IMG/VR virus record: IMGVR_UViG_2531839440_000003
Span: 1-41,145 of that record
DNA: 41,145 nucleotides
DNA from: a virus
Taxonomy: Duplodnaviria > Heunggongvirae > Uroviricota > Caudoviricetes
Reading direction: 5' to 3' (one strand)
This document shows, one piece after another, positions 1,307 to 12,282 of the stretch (position 1 is the stretch's first letter; the number at the start of each line of letters is the position of its first letter). The position numbers and the translations under genes are program-made. The notes under the pieces were generated by a model. It made no database searches and was not told where the DNA came from. It saw nothing but the letters and a program-made list of their open reading frames with translations.

Positions 1307-3778
1307 TTAAAAATCAACCGGATTCGGGATCAGTTTTTGCCAGATTGCTGAAACGTATTTTGCCTGGTAACGGGCGTCATCAAGTGCATTATGGCGCTCA
1401 CCTTCGAATGGAATAGCCGTTCTGGCATCGAAGTCTATGGCTTTCCCCAGCTCAACGATTGTGCGTACATCGCGATCGTTGTAGTAACGCCACGGGCAGG
1501 GGATCCCCTGCCGTTCGTATGAACGGCGCAAAATCGTGTTGTCGAAGTTGGCTCCATTTCCCCAGACCTGAACAAAAAATTCGCCGGAGTTTTCGTCGAT
1601 AAATTCCCGCAATTGTAACAGTGCATCATCTAACGGGATTTCATCGGTCATAATGGCAGATTGCGCCTCGCGTGATTGCTTAAGCCACCATTTAATGGTG
1701 TCACGATCAATGACTCCGCCAGCAGTTTCCAGATCGATAGTCTTACTAAATTCCGGTCCCATATCTCCGGTTTGCGGATCGAAAAATATTGCACCTATTG
1801 AGATAATCGGGGCATCAGGATTTTTTCCCATGGTTTCAAGGTCGATCATTAGATGGTCACACGTCCTGCTGGTGGATGTGATAACGCGATGACCGTTCAC
1901 CGTAATTAAGGGATCTGCCGTCTCGCCAGTTTCACTATCGCTGGCGTGATCCTGAGCGCTGCCAGCATTCTCCTTGTGTGGGTGTTCAGCGCCTTCCATT
2001 TTCTCCGAATCGTCTTCCTGAACTTCAACCTGGTTCTTGTCATCGAATGTTTCCTGGTATGTTGCGTCGCCCATCACCGCACCACAATCAGGGCAGTTGC
2101 CACCACCGCTCTGACCGCAGGCGGTGCAGATTTTTTCCGGTTCCTGTTGCACTACTGGTTCAGGTTGTTTCGTTTCTGGCTCGTTTTGTTGCGTATTTGG
2201 GCTGTTTTGTTCCGCTTTCTGGTCGTTCTGTTCCGTTTCTTGCTGGTTCTGGTTCACAGTATCGCGGGTCTGGATCCCCTTAACCCATTTCGGATCATTC
2301 GGGTCGCTAATCCCTTCAATAAATTCACCACGTGATGCAGCAAGCAACTTATCGGCGTCAGGCTGGCTGATATTGGCTGCCTGCATAATTTTGTTTACTT
2401 CGTCAGCGGTAACTTTTACCGGTTCTGGCTGTGCGGTCGTGTCAGATGCACCAGTATTTTGTTGTGAACCTGAGTATGTACTGTTTTTGCGGGCGAAATA
2501 TTCTTCTTTCGTGATTTCAGTAGCCCCGGCAGCCAGCGCCTTATCCAGACCAGAAAGTTTGTTTGCGCGACCGTATTTTTCGCCATCCTTGTCGGTGAAG
2601 AGGAAGTAGAACGGCCCCTCACGCTCTACAGATGGTTCGACTTCCACTTTGCATTCGGTTTTTTCGTTGTCCGGAATTGCCGTTTCCACTGCATCAGTTT
2701 CTGGTACTGGCGACGAGAGAGTATCAGTTGCGCTCTGATTTGTTCCTTCATCTTCAAACACGCCCTTTGTAGTCAGGTATTCAGTAATGTATTTGTTCAG
2801 TGCCACAGGATCTTTGTGAATGTCGATCGGACGTTCACGGACAAGGCCAAAAATAGTCTGGCGGTCGTAGCGAAGGGCATCAGGCTGTTTGCGCATCGAT
2901 GCCGAGATACGCTTCCAGTCTTCGCGGTCGTTGTCGATAACTTCATTTTTTGCCCAGCGATGGATGCTGCCGTCAATGTTTCCGGCATCCACATCACCAG
3001 GCCAGAGAGCGTAGGCCAGTTCGTCATCCAGTGTTTTCCATGTCTGCTTGTATTCGCGATGAGTGGCAGCAATGACCGGGTTGATTTTTCCTGTTGAATT
3101 TTCAGTGTTCTGTTGATTGGCTCTGGCGCGGGCGAGATCAACAACAGACGTGTATTTTCCGGTTTCCTTGCGTTCACCTTCGCGACGTTTTTTCCAGATG
3201 CGCATCTCTGCCTGAATTTCGGGCCATTTAGCACCAGGAATACATTTATGCTTAACCCACCCAATGGCGTGCAACTTAAGCTCCGGATACATGGCGTTAA
3301 CTTCTGGCATTTTCATCAACGCTTCAACGATATGTCCGTCGAATGTTGCCATGTCTTCCTGCAACAGTTCCTGTGCACTAATCACCATATCAACGGTGAT
3401 GTTTTCACATGTGTCGAACTTAACCATGACAGCGTTCTGTACTTCAGGGGCCAGCTTGTCAAAAGTGACGTTCATCGGATTTGATTCAGTCTCAACCGGG
3501 ACAAAGGAAGCTGACTCCTCATCCCAGCGGTTTTCCTGCATATATTCAGCATCCCAGGAATCGAGGGCAGGGCGGGGTATACCGGGTTTATCCTCGCAAA
3601 CAAGAAATTTATAAGCGCAGTCCTGAGCAGCCGGATAATGTTCCAGGAATTGCCAGTGAAATTTTGCGCGGGCGCGACGTTCATCACCGGCTTCAATGGC
3701 AGTGGCTACAGCGACTGCACCTTCTTCCTTTATTGCCTGTTCGTCCGGAATGGCGGCGCAAATAAAGACTTTACTCAT
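1307..3778 (-). CDS. Phage exonuclease, C-terminal DEDDh (DnaQ-like) 3'-5' exonuclease domain, with Q/N/E-rich linker and Cys4 zinc ribbon
   Basis: 823-aa ORF; C-terminal motifs DLETMG (Exo I), WGNGANFD (Exo II), HNALDDARY (Exo III); central CTACG...CPDCG zinc ribbon; low-complexity QNxE linker encoded by degenerate DNA repeats near 2100-2300. Confidence 0.8.
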   Translation of the reverse strand: MSKVFICAAIPDEQAIKEEGAVAVATAIEAGDERRARAKFHWQFLEHYPAAQDCAYKFLVCEDKPGIPRPALDSWDAEYMQENRWDEESASFVPVETESNPMNVTFDKLAPEVQNAVMVKFDTCENITVDMVISAQELLQEDMATFDGHIVEALMKMPEVNAMYPELKLHAIGWVKHKCIPGAKWPEIQAEMRIWKKRREGERKETGKYTSVVDLARARANQQNTENSTGKINPVIAATHREYKQTWKTLDDELAYALWPGDVDAGNIDGSIHRWAKNEVIDNDREDWKRISASMRKQPDALRYDRQTIFGLVRERPIDIHKDPVALNKYITEYLTTKGVFEDEGTNQSATDTLSSPVPETDAVETAIPDNEKTECKVEVEPSVEREGPFYFLFTDKDGEKYGRANKLSGLDKALAAGATEITKEEYFARKNSTYSGSQQNTGASDTTAQPEPVKVTADEVNKIMQAANISQPDADKLLAASRGEFIEGISDPNDPKWVKGIQTRDTVNQNQQETEQNDQKAEQNSPNTQQNEPETKQPEPVVQQEPEKICTACGQSGGGNCPDCGAVMGDATYQETFDDKNQVEVQEDDSEKMEGAEHPHKENAGSAQDHASDSETGETADPLITVNGHRVITSTSRTCDHLMIDLETMGKNPDAPIISIGAIFFDPQTGDMGPEFSKTIDLETAGGVIDRDTIKWWLKQSREAQSAIMTDEIPLDDALLQLREFIDENSGEFFVQVWGNGANFDNTILRRSYERQGIPCPWRYYNDRDVRTIVELGKAIDFDARTAIPFEGERHNALDDARYQAKYVSAIWQKLIPNPVDF

Positions 3779-3858
3779 GTTGTTTTAACCTCATTACAGA
3801 TTTAAGGGTGAACAAATCCCTGCCATTGCTGACATATAAAAATGAAACCGGATATTAA

Positions 3859-4062
3859 TTACGGTGCTGTTTTAAGTCCTGCCGGGATTTCGTTATTATC
3901 CATGTGAATAACTTTATCGACCGGATAGCAGTTACCGGGAATTTTTTGTTCTGCTGCGGCAGCCATGCATTCTTTCATTGAACCGTAAATGTCAATAACC
4001 ATGTCAACAGGCTCGCCAGTATTAAGAAAAACAGTCAGAGTGAGGGCAATAGCAGTATTCAT
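3859..4062 (-). CDS. Small protein with hydrophobic N-terminus (positional equivalent of Qin ydfD)
   Basis: 67 aa from ATG at 4062 (AAGGA RBS 8 nt upstream); start overlaps upstream stop as ATGA; hydrophobic N-terminal segment MNTAIALTLTVFL. Confidence 0.45.
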   Translation of the reverse strand: MNTAIALTLTVFLNTGEPVDMVIDIYGSMKECMAAAAEQKIPGNCYPVDKVIHMDNNEIPAGLKTAP

Positions 4063-4247
4063 TGCCAGTATCCTTTTTGCATCGGGCGTAAACGTGCCAG
4101 CATTGAAAGAATGCATATTTTATTTAATAGCTCCCGTTCGTGTTTTCTCTTATTAATGGCATCTTCAGTAAATACAGGGTTACTGATTCTGACACCAATT
4201 TCAAAACAACCTTCAGACGTATTGACGTTTGGTAATAACGTTTCCAT
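4059..4247 (-). CDS. dicB: Cell-division inhibitor DicB-like protein (62 aa)
   Basis: Internal ATG of ORF 4059..4343 with GAGGA RBS 7 nt upstream; product METLLPNVNTSEGCFEIGV...NKICILSMLARL matches my recollection of E. coli DicB in sequence and exact length; lies downstream of the dicF-like hairpin as in Qin. Confidence 0.6.
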   Translation of the reverse strand: METLLPNVNTSEGCFEIGVRISNPVFTEDAINKRKHERELLNKICILSMLARLRPMQKGYWQ

Positions 4248-4430
4248 TATCGCGTCCTCAACAATGAATTTTGTGATGCGGTGCCTGGTGCCTCCAGGTG
4301 ACGTTAACCAGTTAATAATTAACGCCGGATACAGAGAACCCACCCATAAGAACCAATACGGAAGTCAACTGGCCTTTTTAACTGTTCCGCGTGCGCTGAG
4401 CCGCATTCACCGCATCACAAAATTCACTTT

Positions 4431-4490
4431 AAAAGGGGCGGGTATCATGGGAAAAACAAAACGGATACCCGCCAAAAGGTAATCAACATG
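4431..4490 (-). ncRNA. dicF: DicF-like sRNA 3' domain with intrinsic terminator (boundaries approximate)
   Basis: Minus-strand 10-bp perfect stem GGCGGGUAUC/GAUACCCGCC (4437..4446 with 4464..4473), 17-nt loop, followed by CCUUUU; preceded by UUUGGCGGG, resembling the DicF 3' hairpin as I recall it; 5' region differs from K-12 DicF. Directly upstream of dicB-like ORF. Confidence 0.4.
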
Positions 4491-4813
4491 GGTTGTTGCA
4501 GCGGGGTTGTCACTCAGGCGTATGGTCAACCTGACAACCCGGTGGACATTTGCGAGGAACGGAGAACCCCCGCCATACTTACCGCCGCGCCATTTCGCGG
4601 AGTGCCACAACCGGAAGCGCACGGTCGACGAAAATTTAACGACAGGCTATCTATGAACCAGCAACCTCGCCGTGCGCTTTCGCGTTATGCTCTGACTTTT
4701 CAGAGAAATATCCTTTCAGTAAACTGTCAGTGCCGGATGCTCACCCGTGTCCGGCGCACACACTCCACCTCACCTGTGGAGAACTCCTTAATTACCAACC
4801 CTCAGGAGGGTGA

Positions 4814-5047
4814 ATGTTAAAATCAACGCTTATTGCTAAATGCCTTTATCAAAATCGCATGGTAAGCAGCATTTCAATAAGCGAATCTGCAGTTAAAAGT
4901 ATTTTCGAAGAGTACTTTCCCGGGCATGATTTTAATAAATGGAATACCAAATTACCGCCAGCAGTTTCAACGCGTATTCTGAAAGCAACTGAAAGAGCAA
5001 GTACAATTCGCGTTAACTATTTCATTAAAGATTTGTGGGATCTTTGA
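4814..5047 (+). CDS. Hypothetical protein, low-GC, opposite orientation to the early-left operon
   Basis: 77-aa ORF with GGAGGG RBS 5-6 nt upstream; AT-rich codon usage unlike flanking phage genes; 3' end overlaps the convergent gene by 23 bp. Confidence 0.4.
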   Translation: MLKSTLIAKCLYQNRMVSSISISESAVKSIFEEYFPGHDFNKWNTKLPPAVSTRILKATERASTIRVNYFIKDLWDL

Positions 5048-5432
5048 TATCCACAGAGCCTAAAGTATGTGCATATGGATGTGCTATTGTGCGCCCCTGT
5101 AAATTTGCATCGTTTTCTAAATCTTTTGATTTCAACAGAACATCAGCAAGACTCTGAATCATGCAGAGATAATCAAAAACAGTTGCCGTTTCTGTTCTGA
5201 TTGCTGAAATAACATGACCATTCAGGCAAACAGAAATTACCCGTTCATCAATATCGTTTTCCTGTTTTTGATTATCAGAACCATATAGCCCTGAAAAAGC
5301 ATTGCGCACATTACGAACCATATTATCGATGGTTTCTTTTTTGGTGTGTGCCGGGTCAATTTTCACCAGACTATCACCGAGTGTCGTTGCAGCAATTATC
5401 TGGATTTCTTTTGGTAAATCTTTAAATTCCAT
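5025..5432 (-). CDS. Hypothetical protein, low-GC moron
   Basis: 135-aa ORF, no transmembrane segment evident, AT-rich; no Qin counterpart at this position between the ydfC-like gene and dicF-like RNA. Confidence 0.5.
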   Translation of the reverse strand: MEFKDLPKEIQIIAATTLGDSLVKIDPAHTKKETIDNMVRNVRNAFSGLYGSDNQKQENDIDERVISVCLNGHVISAIRTETATVFDYLCMIQSLADVLLKSKDLENDANLQGRTIAHPYAHTLGSVDIKDPTNL

Positions 5433-5454
5433 TATTAGCCTCGTTGGTTAACCA

Positions 5455-5673
5455 TTAACGTGGGTATGTAATCATTCTGGCAATGCTTAATGCCGCTGCT
5501 TTTTCCAGATTGGTGATATCCTGCTCCAGAGCGGACAGATTTTCAGCCTGCTTAGCCCTGGCTTCATTGGCCCATTTCAGATCCTGCGCAGCCTTAATTT
5601 TCTGGTGCATCCACTCATAAAGTTCATCATCGGTATAGTCTGGCGCGATGATGACGGGTTCTCGTTTCTGCAT
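5455..5673 (-). CDS. Small coiled-coil protein (72 aa; positional/length match to Qin YdfC)
   Basis: ATG at 5673 with GAGGA RBS; the longer track ORF 5455..5706 is an upstream in-frame extension. Confidence 0.5.
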   Translation of the reverse strand: MQKREPVIIAPDYTDDELYEWMHQKIKAAQDLKWANEARAKQAENLSALEQDITNLEKAAALSIARMITYPR

Positions 5674-11867: not shown

Positions 11868-12126
11868 ATACAGCGAACGCCATTGGTTTAGTTGGATATT
11901 TACTGTGCCGGACAAAAACGGTTTGCGGGGAAATCTTAGTTAAGTAGAATAACTGCGGGTGCTTGAGGCTATCTGTCTCAGGCATGAACACCAAAAGGCA
12001 GATAGAGAAAAGCCCCAGTTAACATTACGCGTCCTGCAAGACGCTTAACATTAATCTGAGGCCCAATCTATGTCTCACAAATGTAGGTTAGCCTCTTACG
12101 TGCCGAAAGGCAAGGAGAAGCAGGCT

Positions 12127-12282
12127 ATGAAGCAGCAAAAGGCGATGTTAATCGCCCTGATCGTCATCTGTTTAACCGTCATAGTGACGGCACTGGTAAC
12201 GAGGAAAGACCTCTGCGAGGTACGAATCCGAACCGGCCAGATGGAGGTTGCTGTTTTCGTAGACTACGAATCTAGAGAGTAA
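12127..12282 (+). CDS. hok: Hok/Gef-family type I toxin
   Basis: 51 aa MKQQKAMLIALIVICLTVIVTALVTRKDLCEVRIRTGQMEVAVFVDYESRE, closely resembling Hok (..[34 protein letters not shown].AYES); AAGGAG RBS; in-frame upstream extension from 12070. Confidence 0.8.
   Translation: MKQQKAMLIALIVICLTVIVTALVTRKDLCEVRIRTGQMEVAVFVDYESRE

What the first reader, a model, noticed from the sequence alone, without database searches (positions are those of the whole stretch)
4491..4813. GC-rich, apparently non-coding structured stretch upstream of the dicF-like hairpin
About 320 bp of higher-GC sequence with several local hairpins (for example GGTTGTCACTCAGG...CCTGACAACC) and only Arg-rich, implausible ORFs, sitting between the low-GC insertion and the dicF-like terminator. 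It could be the unprocessed dicF precursor, a second sRNA, or the promoter/leader of the plus-strand 77-aa gene.
Basis: seen in the sequence. Interest (0 to 1): 0.4.

Follow-up and report, generated by a model that had tools for sequence, protein, structure and literature searches.

The report
Conserved pseudoknotted RNA upstream of DicF
The GC-rich stretch is the non-coding part of a prophage early transcript just upstream of the DicF-type small RNA, and about 185 nt of it folds into a conserved pseudoknotted RNA domain that is absent from Rfam, occurs in most E. coli genomes and in phage P1, and has no known function.

Summary
Window 4491-4813 is GC-richer than its flanks and non-coding, and the quoted hairpin is real. 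The relevant strand is the minus strand, the sense strand of a Qin-type dicBF early-left operon. The stretch is 92% identical to the ydfC-dicF spacer of E. coli K-12. It is present in 4429 of 5426 complete E. coli genomes and is unannotated in all 40 listed hits.

Window 4611-4495 (-) is a 117-nt four-helix domain with a pseudoknot. In 59 distinct homologs, 96.5% of pair cells are paired, against 33-54% in slid controls. Thirteen of 39 pairs show compensatory changes (0 of 500 shuffles reach this). G·U pairs place the fold on the minus strand. A probable hairpin, P0 (4679-4615), precedes it. No Rfam family matches, including DicF, STnc100, C4 and a put model built here.

The domain also occurs in N-less lambdoid PL leaders and in the phage P1 ban operon leader, where GenBank calls it a 'dicF-like region'. 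An intrinsic terminator almost always follows within 2-50 nt.

Function is inferred only. The leading reading is a processing and boundary module of the DicF precursor. The main rival is a put-like antiterminator with a new fold. The 'leader of the 77-aa gene' reading is rejected.

The parts
4495..4611 (-). Core structured RNA domain (117 nt), a four-way junction with a pseudoknot. P1 terminal stem: 4611-4604 paired with 4502-4495. P2 hairpin: 4600-4585. J2/3 CGGUAA: 4584-4579. Pseudoknot 5' strand GUAUGG: 4578-4573. P3 variable hairpin with a CU-rich loop: 4572-4553. J3/4: 4552-4541. P4 hairpin: 4540-4504, with CCAUAC in its loop (4525-4520) pairing with GUAUGG.
   Evidence: MAFFT alignment A2: 96.5% of cells paired against 35-51% when slid; 10 pairs with double changes; 0 of 500 shuffles reach this. 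Model-fitted alignment A3: 13 of 39 pairs with double changes. Pseudoknot triplets left free in the search pattern: TAT/ATA 223, CAT/ATG 13, TAT/ATG 2. Strand asymmetry: 96.5% paired on minus against 89.8% on plus. Covariance model R1 scores window 4490-4617 (-) at 137 bits, the only copy in the window.
4615..4679 (-). P0: long hairpin directly 5' of P1, with base AAGCGCACGGCGA / UCGACCGUGCGCUU and a variable apical part.
   Evidence: Single-sequence folds of diverged lineages place a long-range helix on the same 3' strand with different sequences, for example GAGGGCAU/GUGCUCUC in cdtI and AUAAAAGCCGACU/AGUCGGCUUUUAU in a phage-plasmid. In 10 of 12 lineages, 7-11 of the 11 proximal bases are paired, against 3.6-5.3 after shuffling the 5' part. 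Within the Qin type only one-sided, wobble-compatible changes occur. This support is weaker than for the core.
4692..4781 (-). Three predicted local hairpins in the distal part of the spacer: CUCCAC/GUGGAG (4781-4763), GCCGGA/UCCGGC (4755-4732) and CUGAC/GUCAG (4730-4692).
   Evidence: RNAalifold on 33-39 Qin-type homologs. Sequence is 95-100% conserved, so there is no covariation for or against. This module is absent from the cdtI-type and P1 contexts.
4474..4494 (-). Single-stranded U-rich linker between P1 and the terminator hairpin. It is the position homologous to the RNase E-generated 5' end of DicF in K-12.
   Evidence: Alignment with K-12. Rfam places DicF at L002 2932-2983, starting about 15 nt after the P1 3' strand. 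RNase E dependence comes from the literature (PMC9438474).
4431..4473 (-). DicF-position terminator hairpin (GGCGGGUAUC...GAUACCCGCC) followed by UUUU. It is a cassette variant without the DicF seed.
   Evidence: Sequence. Flanks are homologous to K-12 dicF. No Rfam DicF hit. Other cassette variants appear among the homologs.
4270..4424 (-). STnc100-like structured RNA, the dicF-dicB spacer and dicB 5' UTR. It lies downstream of the finding and is not part of it.
   Evidence: Rfam RF02076 scores 33.5 bits (gathering score 47). The same hit occurs in K-12.
4801..4813 (+). End of an inserted module: ribosome-binding site (AGGAGG, 4804-4809) of the plus-strand 77-aa ORF (4814-5047). It is not homologous to the K-12 spacer.
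   Evidence: Homology with K-12 and most prophages starts at window 4800. The ORF matches phrog_10348 over its full length.

Best explanation
The stretch is the untranslated part of the minus-strand early-left (dicBF-type) prophage transcript that precedes the DicF-position sRNA and terminator. It is the upstream portion of the DicF-family precursor.

Its DicF-proximal 185 nt (4679-4495) fold co-transcriptionally into hairpin P0 plus a tRNA-sized four-helix domain locked by a pseudoknot.

The most likely role is in cis, as a rigid boundary and processing module:
- Together with the terminator hairpin, it keeps the ~20-nt U-rich linker (4494-4474) single-stranded.
- RNase E can then cut there and release the sRNA with a free seed and a 5' monophosphate.
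- The upstream mRNA is left with a nuclease-resistant structured 3' end.

Shown: the fold, its strand, its conservation, its constant position 2-50 nt before an intrinsic terminator, and its homology to the K-12 DicF precursor.
From the literature: RNase E makes the DicF 5' end from this precursor.
Inferred: that the fold, rather than just the sequence, is needed for that cleavage or for stability.
For: Locus identity:
- Gene order on the minus strand is ydfA/B/C-like, spacer, DicF-position hairpin, STnc100-like RNA, dicB, DUF1482, exonuclease.
- The spacer is 92% identical to the K-12 Qin ydfC-dicF spacer.
- Rfam DicF in K-12 starts about 15 nt after the P1 3' strand.

Fold and non-coding status.

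Linkage to a terminator or sRNA hairpin:
- 101 of 120 distinct downstream sequences have a terminator-like hairpin starting 2-50 nt (median 26) after the domain.
- 10 of the other 19 are chance pattern hits.
- The remaining nine homologous sequences were not called by the scan; by eye five carry longer hairpins with U-runs (L040, L136, L138, L139, L190), L131 and L098 are mutated DicF copies, L093 has a weak short hairpin, and L201 is unclear.

The domain is much more conserved than the sRNA cassette behind it (98-100% against 82-92% column identity). That fits a constant 'platform' with exchangeable sRNA seeds.

Literature: DicF is derived from the ydfC 3' UTR by termination plus RNase E cleavage (PMC9438474; PMC5069750).

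The four-way junction followed by an RNase E-cut trailer resembles tRNA genes. Real tRNAs share the operon in P1 and phage-plasmids.
Against: - A pseudoknot, a four-way junction and nearly invariant junction and loop nucleotides (CGGUAAGUAUGG, AGGUUGACCAUACGCC, CACC) are far more elaborate than known RNase E guide hairpins need. They suggest specific recognition of a macromolecule or ligand.
- In P1 and phage-plasmids the hairpin behind the domain looks like a plain terminator.
- In P1-type copies the terminal stem P1 is not recovered by the model.
- No expression, cleavage or mutational data were available.
Confidence: 0.35

Rival explanations
1. Cis-acting antiterminator with a new fold that works like the put RNA of phage HK022. 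The nascent domain binds the elongating RNA polymerase, or a host elongation factor. It lets a fraction of polymerases read through the DicF-type terminator just downstream, and possibly later terminators. That would set the ratio of short sRNA to full-length early-left operon mRNA (dicB, exo, xis, int; ban in P1).
For: The domain lies between a repressor-controlled early promoter and an intrinsic terminator, ahead of the operon's genes, in three unrelated operon types:
- Qin PdicB.
- Lambdoid PL leaders of phage cdtI and an Izhakiella prophage.
- The phage P1 ban operon, where it starts about 35 nt after the C1-controlled P1ban/P2ban promoters and is followed by GCCCAUCUUCGGGUGGGCGUUUUUU, then tRNAs, tciABC and ban.

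No N-type antiterminator was found among the proteins tested (six ORFs of this window and cdtI orf39 by Pfam/PHROGs) or among the 60 annotated cdtI features.

The variable distance to the terminator (2-50 nt) and the lack of any conserved alternative pairing argue against a classical riboswitch platform. Both are compatible with a processive mechanism.

Invariant unpaired nucleotides fit recognition of a host machine shared by P1-like and lambdoid phages.

From my own knowledge, not checked here: P1 bac-1 lysogens express ban constitutively with the rest of the phage repressed, so read-through of the leader terminator needs no other induced phage function.
Against: - There is only one copy per genome and none in a PR-type operon (window; cdtI with filters off), unlike putL/putR.
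- There is no sequence or structure similarity to put. A model built from putL and putR finds only HK022.
- Partial read-through of an ordinary terminator would explain dicB and ban expression equally well.
- No functional data exist.
Confidence: 0.25
2. An independent stable non-coding RNA. The tRNA-sized domain, closed by a 7-8 bp terminal stem, is cut out of the precursor by RNase E and perhaps RNase P. It then acts in trans as a protein decoy or sponge, a tRNA mimic, or through its CU-rich (anti-Shine-Dalgarno-like) P3 loop.
For: - The terminal stem brings the 5' and 3' ends together and the topology is a four-way junction.
- It is co-located with real tRNA genes in P1 and phage-plasmid operons, and with tRNA-half-like and T-arm-like hairpins in Erwinia and Izhakiella leaders.
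- The neighbouring STnc100-type RNAs share the terminal-stem layout. A 2026 preprint describes them as prophage sRNAs related to PasD (10.64898/2026.05.13.724894).
- The P3 loops are CU-rich in most lineages.
Against: - No expression evidence was found for such a species.
- P3, the only candidate seed, is the least conserved part, while the conserved nucleotides are engaged in tertiary pairing.
- The constant adjacency to a terminator is not required by this model.
Confidence: 0.15
3. A DNA-level 'boundary sequence'. The stretch is conserved because it serves as a homology patch for recombination between prophage modules, with no RNA function.
For: Mosaic breakpoints among 120 viral contigs cluster at the edges of the domain (window about 4611/4599 and 4495/4491) and at 4689, 4759 and 4800. 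Different sRNA cassettes and different upstream modules are joined to the same core.
Against: - Compensatory double substitutions occur in four helices and the pseudoknot.
- A paired insertion extends P1 in L201.
- There is a strand-specific excess of G·U over A·C: 186 against 34 cells.
These show selection on an RNA fold. Recombination may still exploit the conserved sequence as a by-product.
Confidence: 0.05
4. Promoter or 5' leader of the plus-strand 77-aa gene (4814-5047), or a protein-coding region itself.
For: The Shine-Dalgarno sequence of the 77-aa ORF lies at 4804-4809. A 110-aa plus-strand ORF stays partly open in K-12 too. The plus strand has the better folding z-score.
Against: - The stretch is present without the 77-aa gene in K-12 and most prophages.
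- No promoter-like site lies within 4251-4813 on the plus strand. The nearest is at 4222-4250, inside dicB.
- The ORF shows no coding signature and is broken in 18-23 of 72 homologs.
- There are no Pfam hits.
- Helices pair better on the minus strand.
Confidence: 0.04

Closest known systems
DicF precursor (ydfC 3' UTR / ydfC-dicF spacer) of the Qin prophage dicBF operon, E. coli K-12
   Same: Same locus and same sequence: 92% identity over window 4495-4800. Same gene order. DicF or its cassette variant follows immediately. [quoted passage not shown]
   Different: In this window a 135-aa gene and an antisense 77-aa gene are inserted between ydfC and the spacer. The sRNA cassette behind the spacer is not DicF by Rfam. 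None of the papers I could read describes a fold for the spacer.
'dicF-like region' in the ban operon leader of phage P1 (GenBank AF234172, misc_feature 68791-68892)
   Same: Model R1 finds a copy of the core domain in the P1 ban leader at record ~68732-68837 (71 bits), carrying the compensated pseudoknot variant GCAUGG/CCAUGC. It partly overlaps the annotated 'dicF-like region' (68791-68892), which also covers the terminator behind it. An intrinsic terminator follows, and the operon is an early one under repressor control.
   Different: In P1 the domain begins about 35 nt after the transcription start, not in a 3' UTR. The terminal stem P1 is not recovered by the model. The downstream hairpin is a plain terminator, followed by tRNA genes.
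put RNAs (putL, putR) of lambdoid phage HK022
   Same: A structured nascent RNA in the early operon of an N-less lambdoid phage that acts without phage proteins (PMC9378689). The position of the present domain in cdtI-type PL leaders is analogous.
   Different: put is about 70 nt with two stem-loops and is present in both the PL and PR operons. This domain is 117 nt with four helices and a pseudoknot, and there is one copy per genome. A put covariance model finds nothing here. Function here is untested.
STnc100 (Rfam RF02076) / PasD family of prophage RNAs
   Same: It is the immediate downstream neighbour in the same transcript (window 4270-4424). It shares a similar terminal stem followed by AAU and a GC-rich first hairpin. 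Model R1 gives weak hits (12-17 bits) on STnc100-type elements.
   Different: Rfam's STnc100 model does not hit the domain even at E up to 10. The interior helices and the pseudoknot differ. Any common ancestry is only a lead.
C4 / CI immunity RNAs of phages P1, P7 and P4 (Rfam C4, RF01695)
   Same: From my own knowledge: they are small structured RNAs cut from the leader of a repressor-controlled phage operon, upstream of a cell-division inhibitor gene (icd in P1, compared with dicB here).
   Different: There is no Rfam C4 hit at E up to 10. C4 works by antisense pairing of its loops with downstream sites. No such conserved complementarity was found here.

Membership tests
DicF RNA (Rfam RF00039) | Match to the DicF covariance model: 5' seed UUCUGGUGAC plus terminator hairpin. 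| tested here: not met
   There is no DicF hit anywhere in the window at the gathering score, or in 3700-5500 at E up to 10. The same search finds DicF at 76.7 bits in K-12. The finding lies upstream of the DicF position and is not DicF itself.
DicF precursor / ydfC-dicF spacer of dicBF operons | Sequence homology and synteny: the same strand as ydfABC and dicB, directly 5' of the DicF-position terminator. | tested here: met
   92% identity to K-12 over about 304 nt. Synteny is ydfC ... spacer ... hairpin ... dicB ... DUF1482 ... exonuclease.
DicF precursor / ydfC-dicF spacer of dicBF operons | RNase E-dependent cleavage that releases the sRNA 5' end. | not testable with these tools
   Known for K-12 from the literature only. 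The linker 4494-4474 is U-rich and is predicted to be unpaired.
HK022 put RNA | Two-stem-loop fold of about 70 nt with the conserved put sequence. | tested here: not met
   Model R2, built from putL and putR, finds both HK022 sites (95 and 87 bits). It finds nothing in the window's domain, K-12 Qin, the cdtI genome or the P1 ban leader at E up to 10.
HK022 put RNA | Copies in both early operons (PL and PR). | tested here: not met
   There is a single R1 hit in the 41-kb window and a single one in the complete cdtI genome with filters off.
HK022 put RNA | Promotes terminator read-through by binding the RNA polymerase beta' zinc-binding domain. | not testable with these tools
   This needs transcription assays and rpoC mutants.
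STnc100 (Rfam RF02076) | Match to the Rfam covariance model. | tested here: not met
   The only STnc100 hit is at 4270-4424 (33.5 bits, itself below gathering). Nothing overlaps 4491-4813 at E up to 10.
C4 antisense RNA (Rfam RF01695) and all other Rfam 15 families | Match to any of the 4227 covariance models. | tested here: not met
   There is no hit overlapping 4491-4813 at the gathering score or at E up to 10 with permissive filters.
lambda-type nut site (boxA + boxB) | Single-stranded boxA (consensus YGCUCUUUA) a few nt before a small boxB hairpin, plus an N-type protein. | tested here: not met
   A UGCUCU-like hexamer lies 2-6 nt before P1 in several lineages. It is the 3' strand of helix P0, so it is paired. 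In this window it reads UGCGCUU. No N homolog was found among the proteins tested (six window ORFs and cdtI orf39) or in the cdtI annotation.
Transcriptional riboswitch | A conserved aptamer whose 3' strand can alternatively pair with the terminator 5' arm (antiterminator). | tested here: inconclusive
   Aptamer-like traits are present: covarying helices, invariant junctions, and a terminator 2-50 nt downstream. By inspection of the aligned lineages, no alternative pairing is conserved. CCGCU/GGCGG is possible in the Qin type but is lost in the cdtI type (CCACC). Ligand binding is not testable here.
tRNA / tRNA-like structure | Cloverleaf recognised by tRNA detectors, with T-loop and D-loop and a CCA-type 3' end. 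| tested here: not met
   ARAGORN and Rfam tRNA find nothing at the domain, while they find the true tRNAs nearby. The 3' tail after P1 is not conserved as NCCA. Only the four-way topology is shared.
Protein-coding gene | A conserved open frame with third-position bias and homologs. | tested here: not met
   There are no Pfam hits for either long ORF. Stops or frameshifts occur in 18-23 of 72 homologs and there is no codon-position bias.

The most novel reading that the evidence does not exclude
The domain is a new structural class of nascent-RNA regulator that reprograms transcription at the adjacent terminator. It would work either like put, by direct binding to RNA polymerase or a host elongation factor without any phage protein, or by sensing a host metabolite or protein. 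It would thereby set the balance between DicF-type sRNA output and expression of dicB and the recombination and integration genes in the prophages of most E. coli strains, and of the ban operon in phage P1.
Probability: 0.2. Interest if true: 0.8.

Novelty: new member of a known kind. Interest (0 to 1): 0.5.

Why it matters
DicF and DicB are classic prophage cell-division inhibitors. DicF also regulates metabolism and EHEC virulence. How much sRNA is made, compared with read-through into dicB, is decided exactly at this spot.

A strongly supported, pseudoknotted RNA domain that no database lists sits there. It is present in K-12, in 4429 of 5426 complete E. coli genomes, in N-less lambdoid PL leaders of several Enterobacterales genera, and in the ban leader of phage P1.

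It gives a concrete and easily mutated handle for three questions:
- how DicF-family sRNAs are matured;
- why the terminator in these early operons is leaky;
- whether enterobacterial phages other than HK022 use RNA-only antitermination.

If it turns out to be only a processing boundary, it is still a useful addition to RNA family databases and to prophage annotation.

Tried and rejected
1. Rfam at gathering and at E up to 10 gave nothing on the stretch.

2. put homology. I took the putL sequence from PMC9378689, located putR, and built and searched a model. The result was negative. I also looked for a terminator right after HK022 putL as a parallel, and the scan did not support one.

3. AgvB idea. 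The P1 3' strand CACAAC resembles the GcvB-target motif. AgvB and AsxR lie downstream of PR' with their own promoters (PMC4104026), so I rejected this.

4. Pas sRNAs (2026 preprint) lie in the late region. They are relevant only for STnc100/PasD.

5. boxA/nut idea. The boxA-like hexamer is paired in P0.

6. Classical antiterminator pairing and a J2/3 (GGCGGUA) mimic of the terminator 5' arm are not conserved in the cdtI or P1 types (by inspection).

7. The tRNA fragments upstream in Erwinia and Izhakiella are not att sites. The locus is an ordinary PL operon ending in xis-int.

8. Thermodynamic z-scores are uninformative or misleading as to strand.

9. Coding potential of the 110-aa plus-strand ORF is rejected.

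10. Two key older papers could not be read here: Faubladier and Bouché 1994, J Bacteriol 176:1150, and the P1 genome paper, Lobocka 2004. They may already comment on the conserved sequence upstream of dicF.

11. A full-text search for two invariant motifs found no paper that describes the element.

Full report
**Where the finding sits**

The window is an E. coli lambdoid prophage of the Qin / dicBF type. The relevant genes are on the minus strand, in this order:
- DUF1391 (ydfA-like), ydfB and ydfC;
- a 135-aa hypothetical gene (5432-5025);
- the finding (4813-4491);
- a terminator hairpin in the DicF position (4473-4431);
- an STnc100-like RNA (4424-4270; 33.5 bits, below Rfam's cut-off);
- dicB (Pfam DicB, E = 5e-37), DUF1482, and an 823-aa exonuclease.

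A 77-aa ORF (4814-5047) runs on the plus strand.

The stretch 4495-4800 is 92% identical to the ydfC-dicF spacer of the K-12 Qin prophage. In K-12, Rfam places DicF directly behind it (76.7 bits). Reviews describe DicF as derived from the ydfC 3' UTR by early termination plus RNase E cleavage (PMC9438474).

**Observation check**

GC content is 0.52-0.57 against 0.39-0.46 in the flanks. The quoted hairpin exists.

The ORFs in the stretch have no Pfam match. The 110-aa plus-strand frame is partly open in K-12 as well but shows no coding signature in 72 distinct homologs:
- 18 have stops and 23 have frameshifting length changes.
- Changes by codon position are 305/291/379.
- Nonsynonymous to synonymous changes are 563:219.

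The stretch occurs in 4429 of 5426 complete E. coli genomes and no feature is annotated under any of the 40 listed hits.

Folding energy of the single sequence is unremarkable on the minus strand (z = -1.33) and better on the plus strand (z = -3.38). Thermodynamics alone neither proves structure nor picks the right strand.

**The fold**

I collected homologs from four sources:
- viral contigs;
- one genome per species, which gave Escherichia, Shigella, Citrobacter, Trabulsiella, Serratia symbiotica, Erwinia tracheiphila and Izhakiella;
- metagenomes;
- annotated phages.

The conserved core is window 4611-4495 (-). It consists of:
- a terminal stem P1 (GUUGUGGC / GCUGCAAC);
- P2 (CCGCG/CGCGG);
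- an invariant strand CGGUAA-GUAUGG;
- a variable hairpin P3 with a CU-rich loop;
- J3/4 ending in CACC;
- a pseudoknot between GUAUGG and CCAUAC in the P4 loop.

On a MAFFT alignment of 53 distinct sequences (A2), 96.5% of pair cells are standard pairs, against 35-51% when partners are slid by 1-3 columns. Ten pairs show changes on both sides, and 0 of 500 shuffles reach this.

On a model-fitted alignment of 59 distinct sequences (A3), 13 of 39 pairs show double changes. This alignment leans towards the structure it was fitted to. The MAFFT result is the independent one.

For the pseudoknot I left the central triplets free in the metagenome search pattern. The result was TAT/ATA 223, CAT/ATG 13 (a compensated double change, also the state in phage P1) and TAT/ATG 2 (the G·U intermediate).

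One metagenomic variant (L201) carries matching insertions on both strands of P1.

G·U pairs outnumber A·C cells 186 to 34. The same helices are 96.5% paired on the minus strand and 89.8% paired on the plus strand. The RNA is therefore the sense transcript of the dicBF operon.

Directly 5' of P1 is a long hairpin, P0 (4679-4615). Diverged lineages form it with different sequences. In 10 of 12 lineages it is paired well above a shuffled control. This is weaker evidence than for the core.

The distal 110 nt (4800-4690) contain three predicted hairpins. They are too conserved to test and are specific to Qin-type prophages.

**What it is not**

- No Rfam 15 family matches at E up to 10.
- It is not DicF, and it is not STnc100 by Rfam's model.
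- It is not put. A model built from HK022 putL and putR finds only HK022.
- It is not a tRNA.
- It is not AgvB or a Pas sRNA. Those lie in the late region.
- A boxA-like UGCUCU just before P1 is part of helix P0 and therefore paired.
- The 'leader of the 77-aa gene' idea fails. That gene and its 135-aa neighbour are a rare insertion, absent from K-12 and most prophages. No promoter-like site lies in the stretch. Only its ribosome-binding site (4804-4809) falls inside the given coordinates.

**Context across phages**

The core occurs once per genome (window; complete cdtI genome with filters off). It always lies in an early operon controlled by the phage repressor:

1. Qin type: after ydfABC and before DicF and dicB.
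2. Lambdoid PL leaders: between the cI-type repressor gene and the first early-left gene in phage cdtI. The same arrangement appears in an Izhakiella prophage whose operon ends in xis and int. No N homolog turned up in the cdtI annotation or among the few ORFs tested by Pfam/PHROGs.
3. Phage P1: about 35 nt downstream of the C1-controlled P1ban/P2ban promoters. GenBank AF234172 already labels a 'dicF-like region' there. A terminator follows, and then tRNA-Asn, tRNA-Thr, tciABC, tRNA-Ile and ban.

Of 120 distinct downstream sequences, 101 have a terminator-like hairpin starting 2-50 nt (median 26) after the domain. Ten of the remainder are chance pattern hits. The scan did not call the other nine homologous sequences. 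By eye, five carry longer hairpins with U-runs, two are mutated DicF copies, one has a weak short hairpin and one (L201) is unclear.

The domain is more conserved than the sRNA cassette behind it. Several different cassettes are attached to the same core, including the one in this window, which lacks the DicF seed. Mosaic breakpoints cluster at the edges of the domain.

**Mechanism**

Nothing functional could be tested, so this part is inference.

The reading best anchored in known facts is that the domain is the structured 5' part of the DicF-family precursor:
- Together with the terminator hairpin, it brackets a short U-rich single-stranded linker.
- In K-12, RNase E cuts that linker about 15 nt after P1 to create the DicF 5' end.
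- The domain would also cap the 3' end of the upstream mRNA.
- The arrangement of a four-way junction followed by an RNase E-cut trailer mirrors tRNA genes, which share the operon in P1 and phage-plasmids.

I give this 0.35.

Its weakness is that a pseudoknotted four-way junction with invariant junction nucleotides is more than a boundary needs. It looks like a surface for specific recognition.

The main rival (0.25) is that the nascent domain modifies transcription at the adjacent terminator, working like put but with an unrelated fold. In its favour, it sits between a repressor-controlled promoter and a terminator that precedes the operon's genes in three unrelated operon types. It is also shared by P1-like and lambdoid phages, which share host factors but few proteins. 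Against it are the single copy per genome and the fact that ordinary leakiness of the terminator would explain the same facts.

A stand-alone trans-acting RNA (0.15) is not excluded. A purely DNA-level recombination linker (0.05) is contradicted by the covariation.

**Novelty and verdict**

Sequence conservation of this region has been noticed before. Examples are the P1 annotation 'dicF-like region' and the title of Faubladier and Bouché 1994. I could not read that paper or the P1 genome paper.

I found no description of the fold in Rfam or in the searchable literature.

I therefore rate it as a new member of a known kind: a structured non-coding RNA motif in a phage early transcript. It has a real but unproven chance of being a new type of RNA antiterminator or sensor.

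Interest is 0.5. A specialist would be mildly surprised that K-12 and P1 still hide an unlisted, well-supported pseudoknotted RNA at a much-studied locus. The mutational tests are simple.

Noticed in passing
window 4431-4473 (-): The hairpin in the DicF position is not DicF by Rfam. The seed UUUCUGGUGACGUUU is replaced by GUUGAUUACCUUUU, and the stem and loop differ. Homologs show several such cassette variants behind the same conserved domain, as if sRNA seeds were being swapped on a constant platform.
   Followed up: partly
window 4270-4424 (-); L003 3416-3306 and 1349-1224; L260 2844-2978: The STnc100-like RNA (the dicF-dicB spacer) shares the layout of the domain: a terminal stem, then AAU, then a GC-rich hairpin. 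Model R1 gives weak hits (12-17 bits) on STnc100-type elements in a phage-plasmid and in P1. The two may be distant paralogs forming an array of tRNA-sized RNAs around sRNA and tRNA genes.
   Followed up: partly
window 4814-5047 (+) and 5025-5432 (-): A 77-aa ORF (phrog_10348, full length) and a convergent, overlapping 135-aa ORF (phrog_1363) form a low-GC module inserted between ydfC and the spacer. The module is absent from K-12 and most prophages. The 77-aa gene is annotated as a frameshifted pseudogene in a 99.6% identical genome.
   Followed up: partly
window 11957-12132 (+): A strong Rfam sok antitoxin match (120 bits), which indicates a hok/sok-type toxin-antitoxin locus in the prophage.
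   Followed up: no
window 16844-17090 (+): Three tandem tRNA genes (Rfam tRNA, 56-72 bits).
   Followed up: no
L138 ~4430-4530, L139 ~2270-2370, and L040: PL leaders of the Erwinia and Izhakiella prophages and of one viral contig (L040) carry a tRNA 3'-half-like segment and T-arm-like hairpins (GGCAGGUUCAAUUCCUGCC, GGUCCGUUCAAUUCGGAC) just upstream of the domain. ARAGORN finds no complete tRNA there.
   Followed up: partly
L138, L139, L190, L136 and L040, 30-110 nt after the domain: In these lineages the terminator hairpin is long. An ORF with a good Shine-Dalgarno sequence (AGGAG-N7-AUG) starts inside its loop and reads through the 3' arm and the U-run. This suggests that translation and termination may be coupled there.
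   Followed up: no
L132 and L135: Contigs labelled as Veillonella parvula and Collinsella MAGs carry sequence near-identical to Escherichia prophage copies of the region (L132 scores and aligns the same as E. ruysiae L127). This is probably mis-binned Enterobacterales DNA.
   Followed up: no
window 4222-4250 (+): The only plus-strand promoter-like site near the region (TTGACG-17-CATTAT) lies inside dicB. If active, it would give a transcript antisense to the STnc100-like RNA, the DicF-position hairpin and the structured domain, running towards the 77-aa ORF.
   Followed up: no
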